A stretch of 64,000 nucleotides of DNA from Candidatus Altiarchaeota archaeon. Its GTDB lineage: Archaea > Altiarchaeota > Altiarchaeia > IMC4 > SCGC-AAA252-I15. The notes under the pieces are model-generated. The model made no database searches. It was not told the origin of the DNA and saw only the letters and a list, made by a program, of their open reading frames with translations. The stretch covers positions 2,579 to 66,578 of the forward strand of contig JAZDMS010000035.1 in assembly GCA_043800705.1 (NCBI GenBank), in the 5' to 3' direction. Below are positions 2,838 through 63,995 of this stretch, piece by piece (within the stretch, counting starts at the first letter, position 1; each line of letters begins with the position of its first letter). The position numbers and the translations under genes were made by a program.

Positions 2838-2842
2838 TAAAC

Positions 2843-4910: not shown

Positions 4911-4961
4911 TTGGAGGTATTGATCCTCAATAGAGGATTTCCTCATGTTTCTCTAACTTCC

Positions 4962-5771: not shown

Positions 5772-5788
5772 CGTTTCACCTCATTTTT

Positions 5789-6061: not shown

Positions 6062-6116
6062 ATCCTCACCTCATTTTTTCCACTCCTAGATTATGTCCGT
6101 TTTTCTTCTTTTCCGC

Positions 6117-6149
6117 GAGTTATGGGCCTTTTTAGGGGCCCATAAGCTC
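6117..6149 (-). terminator. conserved hairpin ATGGGCC-loop-GGCCCAT downstream of 6162..7709
   Basis: 7-bp stem at 6122-6128/6137-6143 with the same CTAAAAA loop (minus strand) as 4883-4904. No clear T-run follows, so terminator function is uncertain. Confidence 0.4.
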
Positions 6150-6161
6150 CGGGTTTGTCTT

Positions 6162-7709: not shown

Positions 7710-7818
7710 TTCACCTCACTTTTTTCCCCTCATTCGGATTCTGCCCATATGCAGCTGCTGATTCCATGCACCACAAGTACGCATCTACACCGCCTGTGTC
7801 GGATACCTGCCGGGCTGA

Positions 7819-7870
7819 TGTAGAGTAGAATGGAGCGTAGTGTAGAACGGGAAAGCGGAGTAGAACGGAT
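7819..7870. repeat. three direct copies of GTAGAAYGG
   Basis: aGTAGAATGGagcgtagtGTAGAACGGgaaagcggaGTAGAACGG, in the intergenic region upstream of 6162..7709. Confidence 0.5.
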
Positions 7871-8256
7871 CTGCCATCAAGGTCAATGGATAGGACAGAT
7901 GCGCGCGGTTTCAGATTTATCAACCGATAAAAACTTTTTAAAAGAATTAGGAGAAAGTCTGAGACGCTAATTGCGGGTTTCGTAATGAAGCGAACGTCGC
8001 TCCTTTGATATTTTATAGTTTCAGCATTTACCAATAAACCTTCGAGGTTATATCCGAGTGAAGCTTAATGAAGGCATGGGTTACAAAAAGGTTACCCGAA
8101 GTATGGTTTCAGCAGGATTGTTTCACCTGATTTCCCCTGCCCATTTTAGGTGTTTAATAAGGGAAGGGGATTAATAAAGGATGATATATAAACGGATAGG
8201 GTGGTTTGATATAATGAGAGGTTATATTCGTTGTTATCTGTTATGGGTGAGATTTA

Positions 8257-9972: not shown

Positions 9973-9973
9973 A

Positions 9974-10273
9974 ATGCCAAAAAGAAAAAAGAAATGGGAT
10001 CTGCGGCTTTATGTCGCAGGGCAGACGCCGCACTCGCTCAAGGCGTTCGCGAACCTCAAGAAAATATGCGACGAACACCTTCCTGGGCAATACACCCTTG
10101 TGATCATCGACCTTCTGAAGGAGCCGAAGCTCGCAGCAGGCGACCAAATAATCGCAGTTCCGACCCTCGTGAGGAAACTCCCCCAACCCATAAAGAAGAT
10201 CATAGGCGACCTCTCCGACACCGAGCGTGTCCTCGTCGGTCTCGACCTGCGGCCAATGACAAACACACTATAA
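9974..10273 (+). CDS. kaiB: KaiB
   Basis: [63 protein letters not shown] is a typical thioredoxin-like KaiB fold sequence. It starts 1 nt after the kaiC stop. Confidence 0.9.
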
Positions 10274-10284
10274 AATGAGAAAAC

Positions 10285-10625
10285 ATGAAAAGTAAAGCAA
10301 AGCATGATAAAACCACCAAACTGATAGAGAAGACGTTTACCGAAGGCGACAAATCCTATTACGTCCTCAGACTATACGTTGCCGGGCTCACTCCAAACTC
10401 CAGCCACGCAATCGATTCGATCAGAAAAATCTGCAATGAATACCTTAAAGGCAGATATGACCTGCAGATAATCGACATCTACAAGCACCCTACACTAGCC
10501 AAGGGGAGCAGATAATCGCCGCACCGACCCTGATAAAGAAACTGCCGCTACCCCTGCGCAGACTCATCGGGAACATGGCGGATGAAAAGAAAACCCTCAT
10601 AGGCCTAGACCTGCGATTCAGATGA
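10285..10625 (+). pseudogene. kaiB: second kaiB interrupted by a 1-nt frameshift in a G run
   Basis: Frame 1 reads YYVLRLYVAGLTPNSSHAIDSIRKICNEYLKGRYDLQIIDIYKHPTLAKGSR*. The shifted frame continues IIAAPTLIKKLPLPLRRLIGNMADEKKTLIGLDLRFR*. One extra G in aagGGGGag would restore LAKGEQIIAAPTL. Confidence 0.75.
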
Positions 10626-10679
10626 GAGTAGCGGATAGTTCTTATTAATCCGTATGGCTAAAACTCGTGCTATCCCTAA

Positions 10680-13079
10680 ATGAAAGACAAAACCGATAGC
10701 AAGCTGCAAAAAGAGAACGCCGATTTGCGCGCCAGACTGGGTGAAGCTGAAGAAACGCTGCGCGCCATCCGCGAAGGGGAAGTGGATGCGATTATAGTCT
10801 CAGGAAACAAGGGAAACCGGGTCTTCTCGCTGTCCGAGTCGGAGAACCTCCATCGCCTGATGGTCGAGACCATGAATGAGGTCGGCATCGCCACGACGCC
10901 GGATGGCACGATACTTTTCTGCAACAATCGGGCCACTGAACTCCTCGCACAGCCGCAGAACAAGCTCTTAGGCCGCAATCTGGCCGAATTTATCGCTTCC
11001 CAGGACATTCATCACTTCAAGGACATACTCAAAATCGCATTGAAGGAGACTACGCACAAAAGGATTCTATTCCAGTCCAGGAATGGCAACTCCATCCCCC
11101 TGGAAATATGGGCAAGCCACCTCAAAAGCCAAGGAAATCCCATAATAAGCCTCGTCGCGACAGACCTGTCCCAATTAGAGGCGGTGCAAAACCTAGTAAA
11201 ACAACTGAGGGAGAGCGAGGAGAAGTTTCGCGGAATCGTAGAGACTGCTAGGGAGGGCATAATAACCGCTACTCTAGGCGGTAATTTCACCTTCGTTAAT
11301 CAGATGATGGCAGACATGCTCGGCTATCCAGTCGATGAAATCCTGAACAAAACAAGTTTGGATTTCAGCTTCAAAGACTTGAAAAAGCCAGTTCTGGACT
11401 TAAGAAACGAGCTAAAAACCAAAAAGATATTGAGTGGCGAGTTCAAGTTCCGCCGCAAAGACGGCTCAGTGCTGTGGTCAAGCTATAACGCTTCGCCGAT
11501 TTTCGACAGCAGTGGACGACACGTAGCCAATCTTGCCATGCATACGGACATCACCGAACGCAAGAAGGTCGAAGCCAAGATAAAACAGGCCGAGGAGGAC
11601 CTTCGGCAGACCCGCGATTACCTGGAGAACCTCCTGAACTACGCGAACGCACCGATCATCGTATGGGATAAAATGCAGAGGATATTCAGGTTCAACAAGG
11701 CTTTCGAACACCTTACAGGATACACAGCCCATGACGTGATAGGGAAAAGGCTGGATATTCTCTTCCCGAAAGACAACCGAAAGGAGTCATTGGATAAGAT
11801 CAAGCAGACAGCTGTGGGGGATTACTGGGAATCCGTCGAGATTCCGATACTCCAAAAGGACGGAGAAGTAAGGATAGTGCTATGGAACTCGGCGAACATC
11901 TACGACAAGGACGGCAAGACTATACTATCGACGATAGCGCAGGGACAGGATATCACCGCACGGAAGAATGCGGAGTTGGAGCGCGAACACTTCATCAGCA
12001 AGGTCCAGCAGCTGTCGGCGGAGGCCCAGATGAAGGCGAACGAACTCGAAGCGATTTTCAAGTCAATGGCTGAGCCGCTGATCATCTATGACGTGTCCGG
12101 AAAGGCGGTAAAACACAACCAAGCAATGTCAAAGATGCTGGGCTTCGACCCAGCAGGGCTGACAATCCGGGGGATTATGGGAAAAATTTCCCTCATGACT
12201 GAGGAGGGCGCTCCCTTCAATGTCGAGGAAACCCCCGAAGGCCGCGCGTTAAAAGGCGAGACCGTGCATGACGTGAAGCTGATATTCAAATACGAGACTG
12301 GGAGGGAGAAGATTGTGCTATCGAACTCAGCCCCCATAATCACCAAGGGGAAGGTGACTGGCGTGATAGTCGTATGGCATGACATAACCGAGACGGAAAA
12401 GGTCAAGAAGCTGAGGGACAGGATGCTGAGGGACCTGTCGCACCAGCTGAAAACCCCGCTGTCGATAATCGAGATGGGACTTGAACGTCTTTCAAAAGAA
12501 TCCAGCGACAGCGGCGGACACCACCATCAGAACATGGACATGATCCTTAGGAACACACGACAAACGAGGGAGCTCGTAACGAAGATACTGAAGCTCAGCA
12601 GGCTCGAGTCCGGAAGTGAGAAGGTGAAGAGAGCGAGATTCGACCTGGCTAAGGAGATGTTAGGGGCGTTGGCTGATTTGATGCATCTGGCAGAGGAGAA
12701 ACGGCTGGTACTGACGTATCATGGGCCCGCCAACCTAGAAGTGAATTCAGATAGAGATAAGGTGATGGGGTCAATCACCAACCTAGCGGAAAACGCCATA
12801 AAATACACCGAGACCGGGGATATAGACGTAAAGCTTGACGAATTCGCGGATAACGTCGTTGTCGAAGTCTTAGACACAGGCGTCGGCCTCAGCGAAGAGG
12901 ACATCGAAAATGTGTTCAACGCTTTCTACAAGGTCGATCCTAGCGTGCCAGGTGCGGGAGTAGGACTGAACATAGTGGCTGAGAACATGAAGCTCCTGGG
13001 CGGAAGCATCAAGGCAGAGTCCCAAGGCCATGGCAAAGGCAGTGTTTTTAAGTTGACAATACCAAAGGGAACCAAATGA
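10680..13079 (+). CDS. multi-PAS sensor histidine kinase
   Basis: N-terminal coiled coil (LRARLGEAEETLRAIREGEVDAIIV) and several PAS/PAC blocks (e.g. DITERKKVE, DITARKNAE). H-box LSHQLKTPLS. HATPase_c motifs NLAENAIKYT, DTGVGL and GAGVGLNIV. Confidence 0.9.
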   Translation: MKDKTDSKLQKENADLRARLGEAEETLRAIREGEVDAIIVSGNKGNRVFSLSESENLHRLMVETMNEVGIATTPDGTILFCNNRATELLAQPQNKLLGRNLAEFIASQDIHHFKDILKIALKETTHKRILFQSRNGNSIPLEIWASHLKSQGNPIISLVATDLSQLEAVQNLVKQLRESEEKFRGIVETAREGIITATLGGNFTFVNQMMADMLGYPVDEILNKTSLDFSFKDLKKPVLDLRNELKTKKILSGEFKFRRKDGSVLWSSYNASPIFDSSGRHVANLAMHTDITERKKVEAKIKQAEEDLRQTRDYLENLLNYANAPIIVWDKMQRIFRFNKAFEHLTGYTAHDVIGKRLDILFPKDNRKESLDKIKQTAVGDYWESVEIPILQKDGEVRIVLWNSANIYDKDGKTILSTIAQGQDITARKNAELEREHFISKVQQLSAEAQMKANELEAIFKSMAEPLIIYDVSGKAVKHNQAMSKMLGFDPAGLTIRGIMGKISLMTEEGAPFNVEETPEGRALKGETVHDVKLIFKYETGREKIVLSNSAPIITKGKVTGVIVVWHDITETEKVKKLRDRMLRDLSHQLKTPLSIIEMGLERLSKESSDSGGHHHQNMDMILRNTRQTRELVTKILKLSRLESGSEKVKRARFDLAKEMLGALADLMHLAEEKRLVLTYHGPANLEVNSDRDKVMGSITNLAENAIKYTETGDIDVKLDEFADNVVVEVLDTGVGLSEEDIENVFNAFYKVDPSVPGAGVGLNIVAENMKLLGGSIKAESQGHGKGSVFKLTIPKGTK

Positions 13080-13453
13080 ACGTTAAGCCAAAGATTCTGG
13101 TGGTCGAGGACAACCTGGACATACAGTCGATATACTCCCAGATACTTCCAGGAAAATACGACATCACACAGGTCACCAACACGAAGGACGCCTGGAAGGC
13201 GATCTCAGAGACAGAATACGACCTCATGATACTCGATATCATACTGCCCAAGGGCGCTCAGGGAGACAGGTTCTACATCCAGTTAAGCCAGAACCCGGAA
13301 TTCTCCCAGATACCAGTGCTCTTTGTAACGGTCATAGACGACCACATGGAGGCGAAGACGCTCGGGAACATCAACCGGGCAGAGTGGCTGACTAAACCGT
13401 TCACGGAAGAGGCGCTTTTGGCAAAGATAAAGACAGTGCTCTCAAAAAAGTAG
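13076..13453 (+). CDS. single-domain response regulator (CheY-like receiver)
   Basis: KILVVEDNLDI, DLMILDIILP and TKPF motifs. Its ATGA start overlaps the kinase stop. Confidence 0.85.
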   Translation: MNVKPKILVVEDNLDIQSIYSQILPGKYDITQVTNTKDAWKAISETEYDLMILDIILPKGAQGDRFYIQLSQNPEFSQIPVLFVTVIDDHMEAKTLGNINRAEWLTKPFTEEALLAKIKTVLSKK

Positions 13454-14183
13454 GCGGCTGCGACAATCATCAATCCCCCCTACTTTTGTCAGAATATATG
13501 CAAAAAACAAAAACCGGCAGGTTTTTATACCTGTATGCGTATATAATCACGGAGTAACTATTGAATAAAAACTTCGAAGAAAAAACAAGCGGATATGCCC
13601 TAAAAGAGAGGCATGCTATTTTTAATAACGGTTCATCCTTTACCGAGCCATCTAACATAAACGGCGTTAATGGATCCACCATAACTTTCCCGTTTTTTAT
13701 TGAAACACATAAAACTTTACCGAAGGTTCTGTTTACGAAAGGCGGAGTTGCCGGGACTGAATTGGCTGGCCGAACAAGGAGTGATGTGAGGGCTGCCATG
13801 GATCCGGGGATGGTTAATGCGACTGTTGCGCGTGAATGCGATGCTTTTTCTAGATTTGGCGAATCCGACAACTCCCCTCACGATCATTCACCGTTGGGTT
13901 TCATATCGGAATTTTGTCATTGGAAGAGGTGAAACTATGCGAAATACTGCAGAGAAACAAAGGAGAAAGGGATATGGGGGCAATGTGAATGAAGGCGTCA
14001 CAGCAGCAAAGTTCGCCCTATCGAATGAAGTTAAGAGGCTGATGCCGTCGACCAGATTATACTGGTGTAGGGAGCCAACGTGGTGTTACCGTTGAAAGTG
14101 CAGCTTAAACAAAAAAGCCAAAAAATGCAGCGCTTGCATCGAGATGAAAGGTGAAGGGATGCGTGTATGCGGTGGTGGGAAAG

Positions 14184-14315
14184 ATGAATGGCGTGAACAA
14201 TACGGGAGATCTTCCGGCAGACGCAGTTGCCGTCTGTCTGGTTTGCGGCAGCCCGTCTGCCGAGTCGGAACACTGCACCTTCTGCAACAAATACCTGCGG
14301 GGGGTTGGGGCCTGA
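14184..14315 (+). CDS. possible 43-aa zinc-ribbon peptide
   Basis: Hand translation: MNGVNNTGDLPADAVAVCLVCGSPSAESEHCTFCNKYLRGVGA (CxxC...CxxC). A GGTGG lies about 8 nt upstream. Weak support. Confidence 0.25.
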   Translation: MNGVNNTGDLPADAVAVCLVCGSPSAESEHCTFCNKYLRGVGA

Positions 14316-14316
14316 G

Positions 14317-14574
14317 ATGAAAGGAGACGCTCAAACCGGCATGTCCGGCAAAAAACAACCCCTGGATGCGAAAGTCTTTGATGACAAAACATCAGTCCGA
14401 AAGGCAAAATCAAGCCTGAAGAGGGTTTTAAAAGACGTCATAAGGATGGCAGAAACCGAAAGCAGGATCGAGGCTGTTAGGATACGGAATCTGATCCTCG
14501 CCGATCTGGCAGTAATCGAGCCGGCATTATCCGTGAATAAAGGAGATGGCGAAATGATGCCATACGATAATTAA
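14317..14574 (+). CDS. possible 85-aa hypothetical protein
   Basis: Internal ATG of ORF 14227..14574, 1 nt after the zinc-ribbon stop: MKGDAQTGMSGKKQPLDAKVFDDKTSVRKAKSSLKRVL... No recognisable domain. Confidence 0.3.
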   Translation: MKGDAQTGMSGKKQPLDAKVFDDKTSVRKAKSSLKRVLKDVIRMAETESRIEAVRIRNLILADLAVIEPALSVNKGDGEMMPYDN

Positions 14575-14613
14575 TTGAATGCGAATAAAGGTGCGAAGTT
14601 TAAAGGTGGAAAA

Positions 14614-14943
14614 ATGGACGGATATGAACAACTACCCTCAGAGGGAATAGGAACATTGCAAGAGACGGTAAAGATGCTAGGGAAACAGTGGGCGATACCC
14701 ATACTTGTGGAGATACAGCAATCCCCCCGGGAGAAGGCCGGTTTTAGGGAATTACAGAACAGGCTGGATAATATCAGCTCAAAGGTGCTTTCTGAGAGGC
14801 TTAAGGAGATGGTGGAACACGACATTCTCAAGCGAAGAGTGAACGCCAACCTGTCCCCAATTAGGGTCAATTACCGGCTGACAAAGAAAGGCAATGTCGC
14901 ATGTCATGTCCTCAACAGGCTAATTGAATGCTCCATGGCCTAG
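14614..14943 (+). CDS. HxlR-family winged-helix transcriptional regulator
   Basis: LGKQWAIPILVEI...FRELQNRLDNISSKVLSERLKEMVEHDILKRRV...YRLTKKG. The start is placed at ATG 14614, which sits behind GGTGGAAAA. Confidence 0.8.
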   Translation: MDGYEQLPSEGIGTLQETVKMLGKQWAIPILVEIQQSPREKAGFRELQNRLDNISSKVLSERLKEMVEHDILKRRVNANLSPIRVNYRLTKKGNVACHVLNRLIECSMA

Positions 14944-15049
14944 ACGATGAGGTAACCAATCCGTTACCCTCGCCTATATACTCTCAAGCGCAGATGTGTG
15001 TTGAGAGCTTTCCCATATCCTTCTGATTCGAAAAAGGCTAGGCTATATC

Positions 15050-15925
15050 ATGGTTCTGGAGTCTATTGTCGTGCCGGAAAGATGGTTGCATCATCCTATG
15101 CGGATGTTAGTGATAGGCCTAGTGTACTCCCTTCTTGGGATAATGCTTGGAATCCTGTTATTCGGAAGATACGCGAGCGTCGCAGGCATATTCCTCACCA
15201 CGATCCCGCTTGTAGTGATATGGTACCATGCGATCTACGATGAAGAGAGGAAGTCCATGGAAAAAAGCACGGAACACATGCACCTTGCTCAGTACAAACA
15301 TATCCTCTGGTTCTTTATCTTTCTCTTCGTAGGAATGGTATTCGCCTATAGCCTCTGGTTCACATTCATGCCGCTTGCTCTGGTCACGGTGTCAACAGCG
15401 ATCCAAATAGATACGATTTACTCCATACAGAACCAATTCGCAGCCACTGGTGCATCGACCTTGGATACCAACGATCTGGTGGTCATTCTTTTAAACAATT
15501 TGCGTGTCCTCCTTTTTTGCATAATATTCTCATTCGTCTATGGCGCCGGGGCGATATTCATCCTCAGTTGGAACGCTTCTGTGATAGGGGTCGCAATAGG
15601 CAATATGGGGAGGGAAGGTTTGGCGCGATTAGGCCAACTGGGCCAAAGCCCATCAATCATGACCTATTTCAGCGTCCTTCCGGTGAGCATCAGCTACCTG
15701 ATACACGGCCTGCCAGAGGTTGTAAGCTACTTCTTCGGGATCCTTGCAGGAGGCATAATATCCGAGGCAGTAGTCTGCCACCATTATAGAGAACCTGAGT
15801 TCTGGCGGGTAATCAAGGATTCATCCTCACTGATACTTGTATCTTTAATGATTTTATTGCTGGCAGCGCTGATAGAGGTCTACGTCACTCCCGTCTTGTT
15901 CGACCCGCTAAAGGCCATAACCTAG
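15050..15925 (+). CDS. SpoIIM/DUF95-like integral membrane protein
   Basis: Multi-TM protein. LLNNLRVLLFCIIFSFVYGAGAIFILSWNASVIGVAIG resembles the SpoIIM/DUF95 core. Confidence 0.5.
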   Translation: MVLESIVVPERWLHHPMRMLVIGLVYSLLGIMLGILLFGRYASVAGIFLTTIPLVVIWYHAIYDEERKSMEKSTEHMHLAQYKHILWFFIFLFVGMVFAYSLWFTFMPLALVTVSTAIQIDTIYSIQNQFAATGASTLDTNDLVVILLNNLRVLLFCIIFSFVYGAGAIFILSWNASVIGVAIGNMGREGLARLGQLGQSPSIMTYFSVLPVSISYLIHGLPEVVSYFFGILAGGIISEAVVCHHYREPEFWRVIKDSSSLILVSLMILLLAALIEVYVTPVLFDPLKAIT

Positions 15926-15983
15926 GGACTATGACCATCGGGGGCATTGGTGCATAAAAAGGCCGCCGGCGAATCATAGCCTT

Positions 15984-16808
15984 ATGAGAAAGGCGGCCGT
16001 CGTTGTCGCGGCGGTGTTGGCACTGTTGGCGGCGTATTCCCTCATCGAGCCGTACCTCATCCTGGTGAACCGGGTCGATTTCGCGGACGATAGGTTGCCG
16101 GAATCGTTCGACGGCAAGAGGATCGTGTTCGTATCGGACATCCACTGCGGGCCGTTGTTCTCGATTGGCAGGACCAGGGAGCTCGTCGATAGCATAGACG
16201 GGCTCGAACCGGACATGATACTCCTTGGGGGGGATTACATCTCCAGCGACGACATCTTCAACACTGGAGACCGGATCGGGCCTTGCCTCGGGGAGTTCAG
16301 CCGCCTGAAAGCCCCCCTCGGGGCGTATGCGGTCCTCGGAAACCATGAGAACTGGGCGGGGAGGGACAGGGCTATGAATTCGTTGGAGTCGGCGAGTATC
16401 AGGGTCATTGACAATGACGGTGTTTGGGCCTCATCCGGGAACGGCAGCATCAGGATAGCGGGAGTCGCCGACTTATGGACGCAGCGGCAGGACTTCAATG
16501 CCGCATTGGACGGAGCCAAAGCGAGTGACTACACCATACTCCTGTCACACAACCCGGACATCGCAGAATACCTCAGATCAGACAGCATTGCATTGGTCCT
16601 CTCAGGCCACACCCACGGAGGACAGGTGACGTTATTCGGCCTATGGACGCCCTATCTGCCTTCGAATGCGGGACAGAAGTACGCAGGAGGATTCGTGAAG
16701 ACGAACCACACGACCGTCTTCGTGACGAAAGGCGTAGGCACGACCGGTCTTCCGATGAGGTTCTTCGCAAGGCCGGAGATCGTCGTCCTCACACTGCACC
16801 GGGAGTGA
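15984..16808 (+). CDS. metallophosphoesterase (YkuE-like), N-terminal TM
   Basis: VFVSDIHCG, GGDY, GNHE, SHNP and SGHTHGGQ motifs. Confidence 0.85.
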   Translation: MRKAAVVVAAVLALLAAYSLIEPYLILVNRVDFADDRLPESFDGKRIVFVSDIHCGPLFSIGRTRELVDSIDGLEPDMILLGGDYISSDDIFNTGDRIGPCLGEFSRLKAPLGAYAVLGNHENWAGRDRAMNSLESASIRVIDNDGVWASSGNGSIRIAGVADLWTQRQDFNAALDGAKASDYTILLSHNPDIAEYLRSDSIALVLSGHTHGGQVTLFGLWTPYLPSNAGQKYAGGFVKTNHTTVFVTKGVGTTGLPMRFFARPEIVVLTLHRE

Positions 16809-57162: not shown

Positions 57163-58356
57163 TTATAAGCTGCCGTCAAACACCTTCAAGGCGCAGTATT
57201 TGCCGCACATGCTGCATTCCCCGCCTTTCTCGTGTTTCCCGCGCGTCTGCCCGGCCCAAGGATCAATGGCGTTTTTGAACATTGTCTTCCAATCCAGCCG
57301 CCTTCTGGCCTTGCTCATCGCATCGTCCCTCTCGGTGCGGCCTAGTTTCACGATGTCGGCTGCATGGGCTGCGATCTTCGACGCTATCACACCCTCCCTC
57401 ACGTCCTCCACGTCGGGTAGGCCTAGGTGTTCGCTCGGGGTTACGTAGCAGAGGAAGTCTGCGCCATACATGCCTGCGACCGCGCCGCCGATGGCGGACG
57501 TTATGTGGTCATGACCCACTCCAATATCGGTCACCAGCGGGCCGAGAACATAGAAGGGGGCGTTGTGGCAGACCGCCTTCTGAAGCCGCATATTGTATTC
57601 TATCTGGTCGAGGGGGACGTGGCCCGGGCCTTCGACGATGACCTTCACTCCGTGCTCCCATGCGCGGGAGGTGAGCTCGCCTAACACCTTCAATTCGGAA
57701 AGTTGCGCATCGTCTGTGGCGTCGCGGATGCACCCAGGCCTTAGGGCGTCTCCGAGGCTTACGACGACGCCGTATTCAGCTAGGACTTCCATTATCAGGT
57801 CGAATCCGATATATAGGGGGTTTTCAGCCCTATTCTTCATCATCCAGGCCGCCAGGAAGCAACCACCCCTGCTTGTGATCGGGATAGTCCTCTTCTTGGC
57901 GTACATTATCCCCTGGAGGGTCAATCCTGCGTGGATGGTCATGAAATCCACCCCGTCCCTGCACTGCTCTTCGATCTCCTTCAGGTAGTCCTCTATCGTG
58001 AATTGCAGGCGCTTATGGGCATAGACCTGGTAGATGGGTACGGTCCCCAGTGGAACGTCCATTTCCGCCAGAAGCCTCCTCCTGGTCTTCGGAGTATTGC
58101 CGTCGACGCTCAAGTCCATCAACGCATCAGCTCCGGCCTCAACCGCCACCCTGGCCTTCCTCAGCTCCCGGACCATGCTGCTGCCGTCCGGCGACGTCCC
58201 TATGTTGGCGTTGACCTTAGTGGAGATGCCGGCGCCGACGGCCATCGGCTTGATCCTACGCCGGGGATTCCCGACGACTACGACGCTGCCGTCCCGGACA
58301 CGCCGGGCCAGCTTTGTCTTCGAAATCCCCTCATCCTTGGCGACCTTATCCAACAT
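57163..58356 (-). CDS. thiC: phosphomethylpyrimidine synthase
   Basis: MTIHAGLT, VEGPGHVPL, GADFLCYVTPSEHLGLP and C-terminal CSMCGKYC. Confidence 0.93.
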   Translation of the reverse strand: MLDKVAKDEGISKTKLARRVRDGSVVVVGNPRRRIKPMAVGAGISTKVNANIGTSPDGSSMVRELRKARVAVEAGADALMDLSVDGNTPKTRRRLLAEMDVPLGTVPIYQVYAHKRLQFTIEDYLKEIEEQCRDGVDFMTIHAGLTLQGIMYAKKRTIPITSRGGCFLAAWMMKNRAENPLYIGFDLIMEVLAEYGVVVSLGDALRPGCIRDATDDAQLSELKVLGELTSRAWEHGVKVIVEGPGHVPLDQIEYNMRLQKAVCHNAPFYVLGPLVTDIGVGHDHITSAIGGAVAGMYGADFLCYVTPSEHLGLPDVEDVREGVIASKIAAHAADIVKLGRTERDDAMSKARRRLDWKTMFKNAIDPWAGQTRGKHEKGGECSMCGKYCALKVFDGSL

Positions 58357-58626
58357 TTTCGAAACTATTATACGGCAAACCCTATATACTATGAGCTCAA
58401 ATAAAATAAGCTGATAACATTCGGGTTAAGCTTTATAATCGGATAATCCATATCAGATAACCCAATCGATCGCCATTAAGCCCACGCGAAGCAGCCGTTT
58501 AAGGCTGGCGAAGTTGCCATTGCAGACTCGCGAGGAGGAGTCGCAAGACATACTGCAGGGCAGTATGAAGACCTTCGCCCCCGGGGCTCGAGGCCACAAT
58601 ATTAGACAAAAAAAAATTAAAAAAAA

Positions 58627-58700
58627 GCCCACGTGTGGTAGCGGATATCCCTGCAGCCTTACTAAGGCTGGCTCATTTATCATCTTCGCCTACGTGGGCT
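58627..58700 (+). other. decayed tRNA-like copy (acceptor, D and anticodon-type arms present, T-arm missing)
   Basis: GCCCACG-TG-TGGTAGCGGATATCC..CAGCC-TTACTAA-GGCTG-..no T arm..-CGTGGGC. The same acceptor stem and A-rich upstream tract as the tRNA-Arg at 58738. Confidence 0.35.
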
Positions 58701-58737
58701 CGATGACACAACAAAAGACAAAAAAAACCAAAACAAA

Positions 58738-58809
58738 GCCCACGTGGGGTAGCGGATATCCTGGTGGCTTGCGGAGCCGCAGACTCGGGTTCGAATCCCG
58801 ACGTGGGCG
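58738..58809 (+). tRNA. tRNA-Arg (anticodon GCG)
   Basis: GCCCACG-TG-GGGT-AGCGGATA-TCCT-G-GTGGC-TTGCGGA-GCCGC-AGAC-TCGGG-TTCGAAT-CCCGA-CGTGGGC-G. Canonical T-loop, A14 and GG in the D-loop. Hand-folded. Confidence 0.85.
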
Positions 58810-59124
58810 TATCGTATCACGACAAAGGGAATTCTTATCACGAGCACGTCGGGATGTCACAACCTCGAAGGTTGTGCATAATCCCGACGTGGGCGCCAAT
58901 TCATATCACGATATCACGGGCAGGTCGGGATGACATGGCTCCGCAGAGTCATGGAATCCCGACGTGGGCGCGAAGTAAGGTCACGAACACGTCGGGAGGT
59001 CGCAGCATCGCGGGTTGTACAGAGTCCCGGCACGGACGCTTAAGGCCATACAGATTGCGAATCCGCACCATAGGCGGCCGGGATGTAAAAAGCCGAATGT
59101 TTTTTAGTAAAATCCCGACGTGGG
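58794..59124 (+). repeat. four direct copies of the tRNA-Arg 3' end (AATCCCGACGTGGGCG), three embedded in imperfect hairpin units
   Basis: 16-mers at 58794, 58880 and 58955, and a 14-mer at 59111. Each downstream copy is preceded by its complement (CACGTCGGGAT or GGTCGGGAT) and a variable central stem-loop. Confidence 0.7.
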
Positions 59125-59164
59125 GGCATCTTCTGTTTTGGGTTTTTATTTGGCTGTGCGTAGT

Positions 59165-59692
59165 ATGTGTCCTATGGGCGAGGATGAGGGGGTTATTTGG
59201 GTCAAATCGTCCGCTGACATCCCCAGGAACGATTTTCTCAATTTCAGCCCGCAGGAGCTGAAGGCCAGATATCCGAAGATTCCGTTGGAGGATTTGCTCC
59301 TTCAGAGGCATATCTTCTTCCCGAGGAAGTTTTCGCTGCCGCCTCAGGTGGACAAGGCCACGTTGAAGTACAGGCAGAACCTCATCCTTAAGGGGCCTTC
59401 TGACCTGAAGGATTCCATTTTCTTGGATATGCCGGTTGAGGATATCAACAGACAGTTCCCCCAGTTCTCCCCTGAGGATATTGCCGGGGAGAAGGCTGTC
59501 CGGGAGGTGCGCCAGCTCATGAAGAAGATCACCGGCAGTCTGAAAAGCAGGGACCTGAATACGAAGGATAATGTGCTTGCCGACATCTCGAAGGCGAGGC
59601 GCAGCCTCGCGAACGCGTCATCCTCATCGGAGGAGATGGTTAAGGCGATGCAGTGGATCCTTCAGATCGAGGAGAACGTCAACCGCTGGTAG
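59165..59692 (+). CDS. hypothetical protein
   Basis: Open frame from ATG 59165 (MCPMGEDEGVIWVKSSADIPRNDF...). Charged and helical, with no recognisable domain. The region looks lower in GC. Confidence 0.45.
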   Translation: MCPMGEDEGVIWVKSSADIPRNDFLNFSPQELKARYPKIPLEDLLLQRHIFFPRKFSLPPQVDKATLKYRQNLILKGPSDLKDSIFLDMPVEDINRQFPQFSPEDIAGEKAVREVRQLMKKITGSLKSRDLNTKDNVLADISKARRSLANASSSSEEMVKAMQWILQIEENVNRW

Positions 59693-59697
59693 CTGGC

Positions 59698-60390
59698 TCA
59701 CACAGCCTTGTCGGGGTAGATTATCCTGTATACGCCGTATATGGAGGACATCAGCGAGGCTATTGAGAATGAGAATACGAAATATACAATCAGCTTTACG
59801 GGCCATGCCTCTACGTCGAAGCTGTCCATTGGCAGGAGTATGAGGAGCGAGAAGAATATGGATACGAATAGGAAGAGGAACTGGTTAGATATGATCAGCT
59901 TGATCTTTTGCTCCTCCTTCATGAGAGATGATAGGGTGACGATGCTGTATTGGACCGCTCGGTAGTTTGATTCCATCCGCTTGTGCCCCTCCCCCCATCC
60001 GCGGAGATAGTCGAGGAATTCGTCGTCGTTGGAGAATATCTTGGAGAAGTCCGGGTCCGCGATCCTGCGGATGAGCTCCTTGCGTATCTGGACGATCTTG
60101 TTCTTGATGGTCTCGATGTAGAATATGAGGAATGCTCCGAGGATGCCGACCATCGCCGCGTAGCCTTGGGCGATGCTCGAGAACAGGTACCTGAGCGATT
60201 CGAGGCGGAAGTACACGGCAGGATAGGTGAGTAGGTCAAATAGCGCAAGAAGCAGTGTGAAGCTGATCGAGAACAGCAGTATGGATATGTGCTTGTCAGG
60301 GTATTTGAGGAATATCAGGGTCGTCGCCAGGGCGAACACTATGGGCAGAATCGAAAGCGGCAGTGCGATGCATATCGGGTCTAATGCCAT
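59698..60390 (-). CDS. hypothetical membrane protein
   Basis: TM clusters at the N- and C-termini around a charged central segment. No recognisable domain. Confidence 0.55.
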   Translation of the reverse strand: MALDPICIALPLSILPIVFALATTLIFLKYPDKHISILLFSISFTLLLALFDLLTYPAVYFRLESLRYLFSSIAQGYAAMVGILGAFLIFYIETIKNKIVQIRKELIRRIADPDFSKIFSNDDEFLDYLRGWGEGHKRMESNYRAVQYSIVTLSSLMKEEQKIKLIISNQFLFLFVSIFFSLLILLPMDSFDVEAWPVKLIVYFVFSFSIASLMSSIYGVYRIIYPDKAV

Positions 60391-60451
60391 TTTAGTACTA
60401 CTATTCTTTGGCCATATTAATACGTTCGAGGGGCTAATATATTGGGGTTAT

Positions 60452-60706
60452 ATGAACCATGAGAAATTCAGGGCACAGATGAGGCTGCAGGGCATCCACA
60501 GGGGGACATTCGTGGTCTGTCACACGGCAAACAGCATATGCACGGGTTACGTCGAAGGCATCTGCTACCCCACAAAGAGGAGGGGATTCGTCAATCTGGC
60601 GGGGACGCGGAAGATCAACCAAGGCCGCGGGGAGGACTGGTATGACCACATATACAGCGTCCGGCTGAGCAGGATTCGGACCGTGAATGCTATGAAGGAG
60701 CTTTAG
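60452..60706 (+). CDS. hypothetical 84-aa protein
   Basis: Internal ATG of ORF 60227..60706 (MNHEKFRAQMRLQGIHRGTFVVCHTANSICTGYVEGICYP...). It ends 1 nt before the methyltransferase gene. Confidence 0.35.
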   Translation: MNHEKFRAQMRLQGIHRGTFVVCHTANSICTGYVEGICYPTKRRGFVNLAGTRKINQGRGEDWYDHIYSVRLSRIRTVNAMKEL

Positions 60707-60707
60707 G

Positions 60708-61823
60708 ATGGGCGGGCCCCCTTGCGAGTATTTCGGCGTTTGCGGAGGATGCTCCCTCCAAGGCGTCGAATACGGGGCGCAGGTCGGGCGCAAGAGGAGG
60801 ATGCTGGCCGACGCACTCGGATTCGAGGATGTGGAGGCCCATTCCCTTGGCGAGTTCTCCTATCGGACCAGGATGGATTTCGCCTTCCACGGAGGAGGGC
60901 TTGGTTTCCGTCGCAGGGGCAGCTGGAGGGAGTTCTTCGATGTCGAATCCTGCATGATATCCAATCTGAGGATCAACGATCTGCTTGCGGAGTTGAGGGT
61001 GTTTTTCAAGGAGGTGGACGCATTCGATCCATCCTCGCATGGGGGAACATTTCGTTATGCTATCTTGAGGGCTCCGGGGGACGATTCATCGGTCTCGTTC
61101 GTCCTCAACAAGGATTCTCCGAGGCTTGCGGGGGCGCTGGACAGGGTTAGATCGTTCGCTTCGTCGACGTCTGCGGAGAATGTCATGGCAGCATACGTCC
61201 CGTCCCGGACTGATGCGAGCCTGTCACGCGACTATGAGGTCGTCAAGGGGGGTGATATGCTTTCTGAGTCATTCCTCGGAAAGGCGTTCAAGTACCACAT
61301 CCAGGGCTTTTTCCAGAACAACCACGGAGTCGCGGAGCTGATGCACTCCTACTGCCGCAGGCTTCTCATGGCGCATGATACGCGAAGCGCTCACCTTTTG
61401 GACCTGTACGGCGGGGCTGGTACGTTCGGCATAGTCAACTCCGACCTTTATAGGTCCGTGAAGATCGTGGAATCAGATCCGGGGTGCATCGGTGCCGCGC
61501 GCATGAACATCGAAGCCAATGGAGCGGGGAATGCGGAGGCCGTCCTGTCCGACGCCAAATTTTTAGGCCGGCTGGACCTGCCAGTTCCGGTCCATGTCAT
61601 AACCGATCCGCCCAGGGCTGGGATGCATCCCAAGGCGGTGAAGCGGCTTCTGGAGATGAGGCCGGATGTTGTCGTCTATGTGTCGTGCAACGTCAGGCAG
61701 CTGGCCGGGGATATCCGAAAATTTTCAGGCTATGATGTGGTGAATGCCGCATTATTCGATATGTTCCCGCAGACGCCGCACATCGAGGCTGTGGTTGAGC
61801 TCAGGCGACAGGCCAGAGAGTGA
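60708..61823 (+). CDS. RumA/TrmA-family RNA (uracil-5-)-methyltransferase
   Basis: N-terminal Fe-S Cys cluster CEYFGVCGGCSLQ. SAM motif DLYGGAGTFG. DPPRAGMH, YVSCN, DMFPQTPHIE. Confidence 0.88.
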   Translation: MGGPPCEYFGVCGGCSLQGVEYGAQVGRKRRMLADALGFEDVEAHSLGEFSYRTRMDFAFHGGGLGFRRRGSWREFFDVESCMISNLRINDLLAELRVFFKEVDAFDPSSHGGTFRYAILRAPGDDSSVSFVLNKDSPRLAGALDRVRSFASSTSAENVMAAYVPSRTDASLSRDYEVVKGGDMLSESFLGKAFKYHIQGFFQNNHGVAELMHSYCRRLLMAHDTRSAHLLDLYGGAGTFGIVNSDLYRSVKIVESDPGCIGAARMNIEANGAGNAEAVLSDAKFLGRLDLPVPVHVITDPPRAGMHPKAVKRLLEMRPDVVVYVSCNVRQLAGDIRKFSGYDVVNAALFDMFPQTPHIEAVVELRRQARE

Positions 61824-62403
61824 CCCTCTGTGCGACCATGTTCTGGGAGGACTGTATCACGATCATCGTCTTGGGTCCGTTGTTGGGTATGATGCTGATT
61901 CGCATGTCCTCGTCTTCGAATAATCCCCGGTCCAACTTCACAATGATGTTGATGACGTCTCCGACGTTGATGTATCCACGTTCGTATAATGACGCCCTTT
62001 TCCTGTAGTAGACCATGTATTTCTGGGTTGTCGACGCCAGGCACTCCAAATCGCATGTGTCGTTGTAGGACAGAAGCTGCTCCGTGTTATCTATCTCTAC
62101 GTGTATGAGGGTGGTGTTCAATGGCAGGGTCAGGGTCCCTGGCAACAAGCGGGTCATCATCTGGATGTCAGTGATCCTGTGAGGAGTTCCTGTAGGGCTG
62201 GGGTCCCGGCCTATGATGCTTATGACCTCCACACCTGCGGCTACGTTCTTCCGGGCCTCCGTGCTGTGGCTTATCTCCTTCTGTGTGAGGCTGGAACTTG
62301 TGGTGAGTAGGAATATGCCGGCCACCGCGGTCGTTATGGTCAGTGCTATGAATATTATGAGCGAATCAAGGCTGGTCAGTCCGCGTCGGCGTCTGGTCTT
62401 CAC
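61801..62403 (-). CDS. archaeal type IV pilin/archaellin-like protein (class III signal peptide)
   Basis: MKTRRRRGLTSLDSLIIFIALTITTAVAGIFLL matches the archaeal prepilin/archaellin N-terminal pattern. Confidence 0.6.
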   Translation of the reverse strand: MKTRRRRGLTSLDSLIIFIALTITTAVAGIFLLTTSSSLTQKEISHSTEARKNVAAGVEVISIIGRDPSPTGTPHRITDIQMMTRLLPGTLTLPLNTTLIHVEIDNTEQLLSYNDTCDLECLASTTQKYMVYYRKRASLYERGYINVGDVINIIVKLDRGLFEDEDMRISIIPNNGPKTMIVIQSSQNMVAQRVTLWPVA

Positions 62404-62446
62404 ATTCAGTTATTTGTCTTGGGGAAATATATAAGCCGTATCGGGG

Positions 62447-63013
62447 CTAATGGGTCCGCAGTGTGGCGTTTCTCGTTGTTGTGAGGCCCCTTGGGACTTC
62501 GCATGTCTCCCAGACGCCGAATTTCATGTTCACCTTCGCGGAGGTGTAGCCGCATTCGCTGCCTGGGACCTTGGAGCTGAAGTCGTTGTAATCCGCCACT
62601 GCGTTGGTGAGGTTGTAGGTGACTGTCGCGAACTTTTTAGAATCAGCCCAATCGCTCGGTTTCCCGGTCTTGTCCCCGAATGCTGGCTTGCTCTGGCACC
62701 GGGTGGTGATGGTGCTGGCCTCGGTGAACGTGTCTTCGCAGACATAGAAGGGGGCTTCGGTGGTCGTGGTAGTGTCGGTCGTAGAGGTGGTGGTCGTCGA
62801 GGTTGAGCTCGTCGACGTGGTGGTGGACGTTGTCGTCGACGTTGTGGAAGTCGTCGATGTCGTCGTGGTCGGGAAGAGTGCGGCGGATACGTCGGGGATT
62901 TCCAGCTCCGGCTGCATTATCATGTAGGCGCCCACGACCACGACCACCAGTATGGTGGCTGCGACAAGCAACAAAAGCACTCCCCCAAGCAGGTATTCTG
63001 GCGCGATTTCCAA
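62447..63013 (-). CDS. N-terminally anchored surface protein with a poly-Thr/Ser stalk
   Basis: TM segment LLGGVLLLLVAATILVVVVVGAYMI, then TTTSTTSTTSTTTSTTTSTSSTSTTTTSTTDTTTTT, then a Cys-containing globular end. Confidence 0.55.
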   Translation of the reverse strand: MEIAPEYLLGGVLLLLVAATILVVVVVGAYMIMQPELEIPDVSAALFPTTTTSTTSTTSTTTSTTTSTSSTSTTTTSTTDTTTTTEAPFYVCEDTFTEASTITTRCQSKPAFGDKTGKPSDWADSKKFATVTYNLTNAVADYNDFSSKVPGSECGYTSAKVNMKFGVWETCEVPRGLTTTRNATLRTH

Positions 63014-63044
63014 TGTGTAATCTTAAGGTAGTCGGCCCTTATAT

Positions 63045-63995
63045 TCACGTTTTTTTTGGCTTGCACAGGCCGTCGAAGTAGTCGTCTGCGTCGCACTCGT
63101 CCTCTGGGCCGAAGACGCAGACGCCGTATTCCCTCCCGCTCAGGCGTTTTTTGACCCTGTATGCGTGGCCGTTTTCTTCGCAGAACCTGGCGGCCGCATC
63201 GTATACGCTGGATTGGAGGGTCGTCGTTGTCGTGGAGCATTCGCCCACCATGAACCCGAGGGTGGAGGTGCTCTTTGTGAATGTGGTGCAGGCTATGCAC
63301 GGGTTTGTGAAAGTCCGCCAGTCTGTCTTGTTCGATGCCTGGGGCGTGTGCTCTATGAATGCGCAGACTGGGTTATAGTCGATTACGCACGGTTCCCGGC
63401 TAACATAGCCCTGGCAGTTCGTGAGGTTTCCGCTGGCCTGATCGCATCTTCCGGAGAAGTACGCCTCCTCCTCGCACATGCCGCCGTCCGGGAACACGCA
63501 TATGTTGAACGTCGCACCCGTGGGCTGCCGCTTCTGCTTAAGGTGGAAGCCCTTTTCGATGCAGAAACTAGATGCGATGCCTTCGAATTGGCTTACGATG
63601 CAGACGCCGTCCACGCAGCTTTTGCGAACGCCTACCGGCTGATCCTCTGTGACGCAGTCCCCCTCGAATATGCACCTTTCGGAGACGGCCTCTGATGCAG
63701 TCTTTACGACCCCGTTGTCTATCCGTAGCAGGACTGAATGGGATTTTCTTCCGCAGTCGAAGGTCATCCTGAAAACCCAGCAAGAGGGGCATCCGGCATC
63801 GGTGGAGGATGCGAGCTTCAATCCTCCGCAGTCCGACAGGAAGGATGACATGTTCTTCACGTAGGCTTCGGCTGCGATCCTGTTCTCGACCTGCCCCATT
63901 GGGATGTAATGCAGCGTCGTCGTCTCGGCCACGGAAGTGGTGGTCGTTTCAGGTTCCGGCTGGCTCATGCAACCCATAACCAGGGCTGAGGCCAT
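63045..63995 (-). CDS. lipoprotein with two DUF333-like modules and a Kazal-like module
   Basis: Lipobox LVMGC. ASSFCIEKGFHLKQKRQPTGATFNICVFPDGGMCEEEAYFSGRC and AARFCEENGHAYRVKKRLSGREYGVCVFGPEDECDADDYFDGLC are DUF333-like. CVIDYNPVCAF...TFTNPCIAC is Kazal-like. Confidence 0.65.
   Translation of the reverse strand: MASALVMGCMSQPEPETTTTSVAETTTLHYIPMGQVENRIAAEAYVKNMSSFLSDCGGLKLASSTDAGCPSCWVFRMTFDCGRKSHSVLLRIDNGVVKTASEAVSERCIFEGDCVTEDQPVGVRKSCVDGVCIVSQFEGIASSFCIEKGFHLKQKRQPTGATFNICVFPDGGMCEEEAYFSGRCDQASGNLTNCQGYVSREPCVIDYNPVCAFIEHTPQASNKTDWRTFTNPCIACTTFTKSTSTLGFMVGECSTTTTTLQSSVYDAAARFCEENGHAYRVKKRLSGREYGVCVFGPEDECDADDYFDGLCKPKKT

What the first reader, a model, noticed from the sequence alone, without database searches (positions are those of the whole stretch)
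58480..59124. tRNA-Arg flanked by decayed tRNA-like copies upstream and four direct repeats of its 3' end embedded in hairpin units downstream
Upstream of a canonical tRNA-Arg(GCG) (58738-58809) are two partial look-alikes that start with the same GCCCACG acceptor strand (58480 and 58627). The second retains acceptor, D and anticodon-type arms but has no T arm. Both it and the tRNA are preceded by similar A-rich tracts. Downstream, the last 16 nt of the tRNA (AATCCCGACGTGGGCG) recur at 58880 and 58955, with 14 nt at 59111. Each copy is preceded by its own complement (CACGTCGGGAT), giving units of about 75-90 nt with conserved ends and variable centres. This may be a scar field from repeated site-specific integration and excision at the tRNA (att remnants). 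Alternatively it may be a family of tRNA-3'-end-mimicking minihelices, which could act as substrates or decoys for CCA-adding or RNase enzymes. A stretch that looks lower in GC follows immediately.
Basis: partly seen in the sequence, partly recalled or inferred. Interest (0 to 1): 0.7.

Follow-up and report, generated by a model that had tools for sequence, protein, structure and literature searches.

The report
tRNA-Arg gene ringed by tRNA-end repeats
A normal arginine tRNA gene in an uncultured Altiarchaeota archaeon sits between two decayed tRNA-like units and four hairpins built from copies of its own 3' end; relatives show this is a fast-changing recombination hot spot, not a proven new RNA system, though parts of it are unexpectedly conserved.

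Summary
tRNA-Arg(GCG) lies at 58738-58809. Chance expectation is 0.8 matches. Each copy is the right arm of a near-palindromic hairpin (units A-D). Two tRNA-like units (U1, U2) lie upstream.

The window is from a Candidatus Altiarchaeota MAG. Related thiC/tRNA-Arg loci carry 0, about 0.5, 1, 2 or 4 hairpin units and 0, 1 or 2 upstream units. Fossil copies often carry the tRNA allele that is functional in a different relative, and unit C keeps that relative's 3' flank. Gene order breaks right after the array, and in one species pair at a hairpin apex. I found no integrase, no viral attP, and no dispersed copies.

Best reading (confidence 0.5): by-products of repeated insertion or gene replacement at the two ends of tRNA-Arg, later amplified and homogenised by unequal crossing-over and gene conversion. 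The array probably now serves only as the tRNA's long 3' trailer and terminator region.

Some features argue for function. The upstream unit's hairpin is shared by clades only about 60% identical in ThiC, and it is homologous to part of a relative's tRNA-Arg intron. Hairpin 5' arms also track the resident tRNA's T stem. A functional tRNA-mimic leader/trailer RNA therefore stays open (about 0.25).

The parts
58432..58439 (+). Only TATA-like element (TTTATAAT) upstream of the array. It may be a shared promoter for U1-U2-tRNA-array and/or for divergent thiC.
   Evidence: motif scan and sequence. Promoter use is inferred, not shown.
58480..58595 (+). U1, upstream tRNA-like unit. It comprises GCCCACG, hairpin hp1 (58491-58509, GCAGCC..GGCTGGC), the stem GGCGAAG/CTTCGCC enclosing a unique 59-nt structured insertion (58514-58572), ..GGGGC, and the trailer TCGAGGCC.
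   Evidence: D7, D9; insertion unique; fold z = -2.7; alignment with the U units of L001, L081 and L012-L092.
58596..58626 (+). A-rich spacer (A9, A8). Together with the U1 trailer it is duplicated before the tRNA.
   Evidence: families D4 (90% over 42 nt) and D5 (79%)..
58627..58707 (+). U2, a chimeric unit. Its 5' part is the tRNA-Arg acceptor strand plus D arm (23 of 24 nt). Then come hp1 (CAGCC-TTACTAA-GGCTG, 58654-58670), the block CATCTTCGCC..CGTGGGC (acceptor-like closure 58693-58699), and the trailer TCGATGAC.
   Evidence: (z = -3.3). No tRNA score.
58708..58737 (+). A-rich spacer, paralogous to 58596-58626.
   Evidence: D4 and D5.
58738..58809 (+). Functional-looking tRNA-Arg(GCG), without an intron.
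58810..58844 (+). Trailer/spacer S0 with two TATCACG motifs. TATCGTATCACG is shared with the L081 tRNA trailer (AATCGTATCACG).
   Evidence: (D8, D10).
58845..58895 (+). Hairpin unit A: 5' arm 58845-58855, inner 8-bp hairpin, 3' arm plus exact 16-mer at 58880-58895.
   Evidence: I18; -33.7 kcal/mol, z = -6.5.
58896..58970 (+). Spacer S1 (two TATCACG-like motifs) plus hairpin unit B: 5' arm 58921-58931, a different inner 8-bp hairpin, exact 16-mer at 58955-58970.
   Evidence: I1, D3, D10; z = -5.8.
58971..59038 (+). Spacer S2 plus unit C. The 5' arm (58988-58998) and centre are paralogous to A (76%). The 3' arm is an 'old-type' tRNA end, AGTCCCGGCACGGACG (59023-59038). The hairpin has decayed.
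   Evidence: D2; z = +0.5. The arm matches the L002 tRNA end at 14 of 16 nt.
59039..59077 (+). 39-nt spacer starting CTTAAGG. It corresponds to the 39-40-nt tRNA-to-hairpin spacer of L002 and L082, which starts CTTAG/CTTAC.
   Evidence: direct comparison of sequence and length.
59078..59126 (+). Unit D, the decayed ortholog of the single hairpin of L002 and of the L081 units. It comprises CCGGGAT, GTAAAAAGCC.., T6 (59100-59105, the first T run of 4 or more after 58432), and AATCCCGACGTGGGGG (59111-59126).
   Evidence: (z = -0.3).
59127..59150 (+). Ancestral 3' flank (..TCTTCTGTTTTGGGTTTTTAT) with a T5 run. It is shared with the flank after the last copy in L002 (TCCTTCTGT) and L081 (GTTTTGGGTTAT).

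Best explanation
The 650-bp field is a by-product of recurrent DNA recombination at the two ends of the single tRNA-Arg(GCG) gene next to thiC. It is not a set of independent genes.

Proposed steps, with their status:
1. DNA was inserted, or the tRNA allele replaced, at the T-loop-to-3'-end segment. This gave the gene a new 3' end and trailer and pushed the old 3' end plus its flank downstream (inferred; units C and D are the fossils). Similar events at the acceptor/D-arm segment left 5' fragments upstream (U units; inferred).
2. Each junction carries an inverted copy of the tRNA 3' end, so it forms a palindrome. The sequence shows this directly. The enzyme or process that made it is unknown: a tyrosine-recombinase core site or a fold-back/template-switch event.
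3. Direct repeats of 16-25 nt lying 70-150 nt apart then drove unequal crossing-over and short-tract gene conversion. This produced U1-U2 and A-B-C and kept the young copies identical to the gene (inferred from the mosaic pattern of similarity).
4. Today the array is most likely just transcribed as the tRNA's 3' trailer. No T run of 4 or more occurs between 58432 and 59100. RNase Z would release the tRNA at 58809, and transcription would stop at the T6/T5 runs in and after unit D (inferred; nothing here shows expression).
For: Copy number and fossil alleles:
- Copy number is unstable among relatives with 72-90% ThiC identity. Hairpin units: 4 in the window, 2 in L081/L281, 1 in L002, a 5' arm only in L082/L283, one decayed in L285, none in L001, L003, L004, L084 and L284. 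U units: 2, 1 or 0.
- Fossils carry alleles that are functional elsewhere. The L081 copies equal the L002 tRNA end. The L002 copy equals the L082 tRNA end. Window unit C resembles the L002 end plus its CTTA flank, followed by the same 39-nt spacing to unit D.
- The sequence after the last copy is not homologous to the sequence after the tRNA. That points to insertion rather than simple tandem duplication. L092 shows what a true tandem duplication looks like.

Breakpoints and gene order:
- L082/L283 have 2.6 kb with two genes between the tRNA plus 5' arm and a distal copy. Homology to the sister species L002 stops at the hairpin apex.
- Gene order downstream differs in every relative. The window carries about 2.7 kb (59127-61800) that is not found at this position in L285 or L004.

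Decay and mosaic structure:
- Old units decay while young ones are perfect.
- U2 is a chimera of the tRNA 5' part and the U1-type 3' part, with the spacer duplicated. This is what unequal crossing-over predicts.

Precedent:
- Partial 5' or 3' tRNA copies from mobile-element integration in archaea (PMC9897764).
- The Caldiarchaeum model linking a 5' tRNA fragment, a mobile element and intron gain (PMC3293823).
Against: - No integrase or recombinase gene in the window or in 7 related loci.
- No attP-like match in IMG/VR (exact 20-mer) or in the phage collection.
- The inserts between copies are only 60-90 bp.
- Plain att duplication does not predict an inverted copy of the core 25-35 nt upstream, nor a new perfect inner hairpin in each unit type.
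- The 5' arm follows the resident tRNA's T stem in 5 of 5 lineages. The D-type hairpin is nearly identical in L002 and L081.
- U hairpin hp1 is shared by clades with about 60% ThiC identity.
- The last two points suggest either constraint or very active conversion, neither of which a neutral scar requires.
Confidence: 0.5

Rival explanations
1. The units are functional tRNA-mimic RNA modules. U would be a structured tRNA-like leader, and A-D would be trailer hairpins whose base copies the acceptor/T-stem stack. All would be co-transcribed with tRNA-Arg and recognised by tRNA enzymes (RNase P, RNase Z, CCA-adding enzyme) as processing signals, decoys or terminator elements. Alternatively, the 5' arm pairs with the tRNA 3' strand to control maturation.
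For: - No T run of 4 or more between 58432 and 59100, so one transcript is possible.
- Strong folds for A, B and the units of L081, L002 and L285.
- Inner hairpins keep their structure with unrelated sequences.
- The 5' arm is complementary to the resident tRNA 3' strand in all five lineages. In L081 it matches the tRNA better than it matches its own 3' arm.
- U hp1 and the hp2 base (GCGAAGGAG..CUCUGRCG) are conserved while the interior differs.
- The repeats end exactly at the discriminator base.
- Known analogues exist: the tRNA-like element processed by tRNase Z at the Haloferax 5S rRNA (PMC3296008) and plant mitochondrial t-elements (PMC1920247).
Against: - Units C and D in the window have lost their hairpins.
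- Several relatives have no hairpin unit, no U unit, or neither.
- The stems are 20 bp or longer and continuous, not the 12-bp minihelix with a T loop. Acceptor pairs 2-71 and 3-70 are always mismatched.
- The arm covariation can be explained by copying from the tRNA.
- In D-type units the T5 run precedes the 3' arm, so the full hairpin may not even be transcribed.
- No Rfam family matches.
- There are no expression data.
Confidence: 0.25
2. The array has a purely local origin, with no mobile element. Fold-back or template-switch replication errors at the T-arm inverted repeat created palindromes of the tRNA 3' end. Slippage, unequal crossing-over and gene conversion then did the rest. The variable downstream genes would be an unrelated flexible island.
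For: - The arms are built from the resident tRNA's own T-stem variant in each lineage.
- No integrase is present anywhere.
- L092 shows a plain tandem duplication at the same tRNA.
- Palindromes are perfect when young and decay later.
Against: - Fossil 3' arms and the U 5' end in L081 carry another lineage's allele. The sister species L002 and L082 differ by two flipped acceptor pairs, and the fossil keeps the other allele. This looks more like allele replacement than point mutation.
- The non-tRNA parts of the arms and the spacers are unrelated to the local flank.
Confidence: 0.18
3. The hairpins are MITE-like palindromic mobile elements. Altiarchaeum genomes are reported to be rich in MITEs. 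The terminal inverted repeats of these elements would resemble the tRNA end, and they would insert next to it.
For: - Inverted arms of 11-15 bp around a variable centre.
- High conserved-MITE density reported for Ca. Altiarchaeum hamiconexum (PMC11602168).
Against: - No other copy of the arms or of the D-type hairpin in the 64-kb window or in 1.5 Mb of fetched loci.
- No target-site duplication.
- No transposase.
- The copies are strictly in tandem at one tRNA.
Confidence: 0.05

Closest known systems
Partial tRNA-gene duplications (attL/attR direct repeats) left by integrative elements in archaea. Examples: SSV1 at tRNA-Arg, PYG1 at tRNA-Gln, pNOB8-type plasmids (PMC9897764, PMC3293823).
   Same: - Direct repeats consisting of the 5' or 3' end of a tRNA gene flank non-homologous DNA.
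- Mismatched alleles are preserved in the displaced copy.
- Occupancy varies between relatives.
- Gene order breaks at the tRNA.
   Different: - No integrase and no cargo. The inserts are 60-90 bp, apart from 2.6 kb in L082/L283.
- Repeats are 16-25 nt rather than about 44 nt.
- Each 3' copy is paired with an inverted copy to form a long hairpin.
- Up to four copies lie in tandem, with fragments on both sides of one gene.
Caldiarchaeum subterraneum tRNA-Thr(GGU) locus and its model of tRNA gene disruption (PMC3293823).
   Same: - A 5' tRNA fragment lies upstream of the intact gene.
- Intron presence or absence differs between close relatives.
- Strains within one population differ.
   Different: - There, a 1.8-kb element with a recombinase gene separates the fragment from the gene. 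Here the separation is 30-240 nt with no recombinase.
- Here the sequence that follows the upstream fragment (hp2/M block, trailer and spacer) is homologous to the interior of a relative's intron (L003).
E. coli tyrT locus: a tRNA-Tyr gene followed by tandem 178-bp repeats that each contain the last ~19 nt of the tRNA (recalled from memory of Rossi, Egan and Landy's work, not checked here).
   Same: Tandem downstream repeats each end with the tRNA's 3' terminal segment. The arrangement is attributed to unequal recombination and lies in the tRNA's transcribed trailer.
   Different: - It is bacterial.
- The repeats are long and similar to one another and are not palindromic.
- There are no upstream fragments.
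tRNA-like processing elements: the Haloferax 5S rRNA leader cut by tRNase Z (PMC3296008), plant mitochondrial t-elements (PMC1920247), mascRNA, and gammaherpesvirus tRNA-hairpin transcripts (the last two from memory).
   Same: Non-tRNA structures that copy the acceptor/T-arm region lie next to another RNA and could be cut by tRNA-processing enzymes. The tRNA-then-hairpins layout is also similar.
   Different: - Here the helices are long and continuous, with no T loop.
- No processing is shown.
- The older copies decay.

Membership tests
Integrative-element att duplication at a tRNA gene | Direct repeat identical or nearly identical to the tRNA 3' (or 5') end, at a distance from the gene. | tested here: met
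   3' copies at +141, +216, (+285) and +372, and a 5' copy at -111.
Integrative-element att duplication at a tRNA gene | Integrase or recombinase gene within or beside the repeat-bounded segment. | tested here: not met
   Pfam and PHROGs scans of the ORFs flanking the array and of the low-GC region at 663-16808 of the window, plus ORFs in L002, L081, L283 and L285, found none.
Integrative-element att duplication at a tRNA gene | Repeat-bounded DNA absent from relatives (occupied versus empty site). | tested here: met
   0 to 4 units among relatives. A 2.6-kb segment in L082/L283 is absent from L002.
Integrative-element att duplication at a tRNA gene | Matching attP on a virus or plasmid. | tested here: inconclusive
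   No exact 20-mer in IMG/VR and no blastn hit in the phage collection. Archaeal plasmids and Altiarchaeota viruses are poorly sampled, and the scan finds exact matches only.
Canonical tRNA or tRNA pseudogene (for U1, U2 and A-D) | Score against the tRNA covariance model; cloverleaf with a T arm. | tested here: not met
   Only 58738-58809 scores. Nothing else scores at E <= 10. ARAGORN finds one gene.
MITE or other dispersed palindromic element | Multiple dispersed copies with terminal inverted repeats and target-site duplications. | tested here: not met
   The arms and the D-type hairpin occur only at this tRNA in the window plus 1.5 Mb of loci. No target-site duplication is visible.
Integron attC array (CALIN) | R''/R' boxes (RYYYAAC..GTTRRRY), and cassettes or an IntI integrase. 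| tested here: not met
   The arms are CACGTCGGGAT/ATCCCGACGTG with no AAC/GTT ends. No integrase is present.
Archaeal C/D box sRNA (for the UCGAUGAC block) | C box RUGAUGA and D box CUGA in a terminal K-turn arrangement. | tested here: not met
   There is no CUGA partner. Rfam gives only a 14.9-bit snoR113 hit at E = 4 on the minus strand.
Archaeal BHB intron (for the 57-nt insertion in L281 and the 59-nt insertion in U1) | Bulge-helix-bulge structure at both junctions. | tested here: inconclusive
   The predicted fold gives a 5-6 x 1 internal loop, not a 3-4-3 BHB. Relaxed motifs cannot be excluded.
tRNA-like processing element (t-element type) | Cleavage by RNase P or RNase Z at the mimic. 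| not testable with these tools
   This needs RNA end mapping or enzyme assays.

The most novel reading that the evidence does not exclude
U and the hairpin units form a conserved Altiarchaeota 'tRNA-Arg module'. A tRNA-5'-mimic leader and palindromic tRNA-3'-mimic trailer hairpins would be expressed with the tRNA and used by the cell. Possible uses are as processing or termination signals, or as decoy landing pads that divert recombinases from the single-copy gene. The homology between U and the L003 intron would then capture intermediate states of how archaeal tRNA introns arise from flanking tRNA-derived sequence.
Probability: 0.2. Interest if true: 0.75.

Novelty: new variant of a known kind. 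Interest (0 to 1): 0.45.

Why it matters
tRNA genes are the classic landing sites for mobile DNA. How archaeal tRNA genes acquire introns, fragments and split forms is still an open question.

This locus and its relatives offer a natural series of states:
- an intron-less gene with 5' and 3' fossils;
- an intron-containing gene whose intron is homologous to the upstream fossil;
- a within-species insertion polymorphism;
- a gene-bearing insertion at a hairpin.

Together these make recombination-based models of tRNA gene disruption testable in an uncultured phylum. If the hairpins proved to be functional tRNA mimics, they would be a new kind of archaeal RNA element. If not, the locus is a warning example for tRNA annotation and for inferring att sites from repeats alone.

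Tried and rejected
- Rfam at gathering and E <= 10 thresholds found nothing but the tRNA.
- The phage collection (blastn) and IMG/VR (exact tRNA-end 20-mer) gave no hit.
- An IMG/VR scan with the 15-mer GGGATGYAAAAAGCC returned only chance hits, none with a tRNA-end arm nearby.
- An exact look-up of the window's own ThiC failed.
- Three relatives' contigs had no DNA available.
- A type III toxin-antitoxin reading (repeat array, terminator, then a small ORF) was rejected. ORF 59165-59692 has no family hit, and relatives with hairpin units have different downstream genes.
- Reading U as a real D-armless, split or alternative tRNA was rejected. The 'anticodon' differs in every lineage (ACU, CAU, GCU, and 6-nt loops) and no tRNA model scores.
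- A tRNA-primed retroelement primer-binding-site reading of the 5' arm was rejected. No reverse transcriptase is present, and no such elements are known in archaea.
- C/D box, H/ACA and integron attC readings failed on their defining motifs.
- I looked for a distal att copy bounding the extra 2.7 kb (59127-61800). None exists at up to 5 mismatches.
- Comparing G.U with A.C mismatches in the stems, to tell RNA-level from DNA-level selection, gave about 6-7 against 4. That is not informative.

Full report
**What is there**

The window encodes one tRNA, tRNA-Arg(GCG), at 58738-58809 (ARAGORN; Rfam 56.7 bits). It lies 380 nt from the start of a divergent thiC gene (57163-58356, minus strand).

The tRNA's last 16 nt recur at 58880 and 58955 (exact) and at 59111 (one mismatch). 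They occur nowhere else in 64 kb. Chance expectation is 0.8 matches, and 0 of 100 shuffles reached the observed five. A fifth, diverged copy sits at 59023-59038, so there are four downstream units, A to D, at spacings of 86, 75, 68 and 88 nt.

Each copy is the right arm of a near-palindrome.
- The left arm is the reverse complement of the tRNA's T-stem 3' strand plus four acceptor nucleotides.
- An inner hairpin of unrelated sequence lies between the arms.
- A and B fold far better than shuffles (z = -6.5 and -5.8). C and D have decayed (z = +0.5 and -0.3).

Upstream, U2 (58627-58707) has the tRNA's acceptor strand and D arm (23 of 24 nt), an anticodon-like hairpin (hp1), no T arm, and a closing CGTGGGC. 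U1 (58480-58595) keeps GCCCACG and hp1, plus a stem that encloses a unique 59-nt structured insertion. The U trailer, the A-rich spacer and the tRNA 5' part are duplicated as a block (42 nt at 90%). None of these units scores as a tRNA even at E <= 10.

**Where it comes from**

ThiC is identical to a protein of an NCBI Candidatus Altiarchaeota MAG. The nearest other genomes have 72-78% ThiC identity.

The thiC/tRNA-Arg(GCG) neighbourhood is conserved, but the flanks of the tRNA differ in each relative.

| Locus | Hairpin units | U units | Other features |
|---|---|---|---|
| L002 | 1 | 0 | |
| L082/L283 (90% ThiC identity to L002) | 5' arm only | 0 | then 2.6 kb with two secreted-protein genes, then TATCCCGACGTGGGCG |
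| L081/L281 | 2 | 1 | |
| L285 | 1, decayed | 0 | |
| L001 | 0 | 1 | 150-nt tRNA intron |
| L003 | 0 | 0 | 80-nt tRNA intron |
| L004, L084, L284 | 0 | 0 | T-rich terminators directly after the tRNA (L004, L084) |
| L012, L014, L091, L092 (distant clade, ~60% ThiC identity) | 0 | 1, at 190-237 nt upstream | L092 alone has a 206-bp tandem duplication of the tRNA 3' end plus flank |

**Evidence for recombination history**

- *Fossil alleles.* The two L081 copies (AATCCCGGCACGGGCG) differ from L081's own tRNA end but equal the functional end in L002. The L081 U unit starts with the matching GCCCGTG. The L002 copy equals the functional end in L082. Window unit C resembles the L002 end and keeps its CTTA flank. 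C is followed by 39 nt and then unit D, which is the same spacing as from the tRNA to the hairpin in L002 and L082.
- *Orthology of C-spacer-D.* Window C-spacer-D is therefore orthologous to 'tRNA end-spacer-hairpin' of L002. The stretch from the present tRNA 3' end through the left part of C is an insertion that supplied a new 3' end and trailer. That trailer, TATCGTATCACG, is shared with L081.
- *Insertion rather than duplication.* The sequence after the last copy is not homologous to the sequence after the tRNA. This is unlike the plain tandem duplication in L092.
- *Breakpoint at a hairpin.* Homology between the sister species L002 and L283 ends at the apex of the hairpin.
- *Broken gene order.* Downstream gene order differs in every relative. 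L285 and L004 keep tRNA-flagellin-DUF333, as at window 61801-63995. The window has about 2.7 kb in between that is not found at this position in L285 or L004. It includes an ORF with only two homologues among 5.8 billion proteins.
- *Chimeric U2.* U2 combines the tRNA 5' part with the U1-type 3' part, which is what unequal crossing-over between U and the tRNA would give.

These features match known consequences of element integration at archaeal tRNA genes (PMC9897764) and the Caldiarchaeum model (PMC3293823).

**What does not fit a simple att-scar story**

- No integrase or other recombinase was found in the window or in seven related loci.
- No attP-like sequence was found in IMG/VR or the phage collection.
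- The inserts are tiny, and every junction is palindromised, with a different inner hairpin in each unit type.
- The T-stem part of the 5' arm follows the resident tRNA in five of five lineages: TCGGG, CCGGG, CCGGG, CTGGG and CCGGA.
- U hp1 (GCAGC..GCTGGC) is shared by clades with about 60% ThiC identity, even though loops and insertions vary. One 57-nt insertion is polymorphic within a single species, between L081 and L281.
- The block CATCTTCGYCC..GGGMCTYGATGAC of U is about 85% identical to part of the L003 tRNA intron.

These points mean either very active gene conversion or some functional constraint. I could not separate the two.

**Present-day working (inferred)**

The only TATA-like element is at 58432. 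No T run of 4 or more occurs on the plus strand until 59100-59105, inside unit D. A T5 run follows at 59143. The array is therefore probably transcribed as leader and trailer of the tRNA precursor, with the conserved D-type hairpin region acting as the terminator. Nothing here shows expression.

**Verdict**

The minihelix hypothesis remains untested and is weakened by the decay of units C and D.

I rate this a new variant of a known kind (tRNA-gene fragment duplications at a recombination hot spot) and of moderate interest. The interest comes mainly from the palindromised junctions, the deep conservation of the upstream unit, and its homology to a relative's intron.

Noticed in passing
window 1-15000: GC content is 46-52%, against 55-62% for 16000-53000. 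The genes include an ice-binding-like protein, a Big_5 surface protein, KaiC and a PAS histidine kinase. This may be a separate genomic island.
   Followed up: partly
L001 129-351 (minus strand) and L003 3188-3343 (minus strand): tRNA-Arg(GCG) genes with introns of about 150 nt and 80 nt at position 37/38. The introns share their ends (GAACSGTCACGCC ... ACGTTCGCAAAC). ARAGORN missed both genes.
   Followed up: partly
L281 243-299 compared with L081 (same ThiC protein, different samples): A 57-nt two-hairpin insertion replaces 3 nt in the loop of U hairpin hp1. The surrounding sequence is otherwise almost identical, so this is a within-species polymorphism.
   Followed up: partly
L092 4720-4990: A 206-bp tandem duplication of the tRNA-Arg 3' end plus 50 nt of flank. 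It is absent from the close relatives L014 and L091.
   Followed up: partly
window 59165-59692 and 59698-60390: Two ORFs with no family hits. The first has only two homologues in the 5.8-billion-protein search. GC content is 0.51-0.53. They lie directly after the array and are missing from syntenic relatives.
   Followed up: partly
window 60708-61823 and 61801-62403: A TrmA/RumA-like methyltransferase gene (Pfam tRNA_U5-meth_tr; it also hits a PHROG family annotated as DNA methyltransferase). Its end overlaps by 23 nt the end of a convergent archaeal flagellin/pilin gene.
   Followed up: no
window 58815, 58836, 58904, 58912, 58980: An 8-mer, TATCACGA (or GTCACGA), is repeated five times in the spacers before the hairpin 5' arms. 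It is also present in the L081 spacers. It could be a protein-binding site or a degenerate extension of the inverted arm.
   Followed up: partly
L283 500-530 (minus strand), equivalent to L082 60-100: Just after the distal tRNA-Arg end copy there is a second tRNA-like fragment, GTTCGAATCCCACACAC. It suggests remnants of another tRNA's T arm.
   Followed up: no
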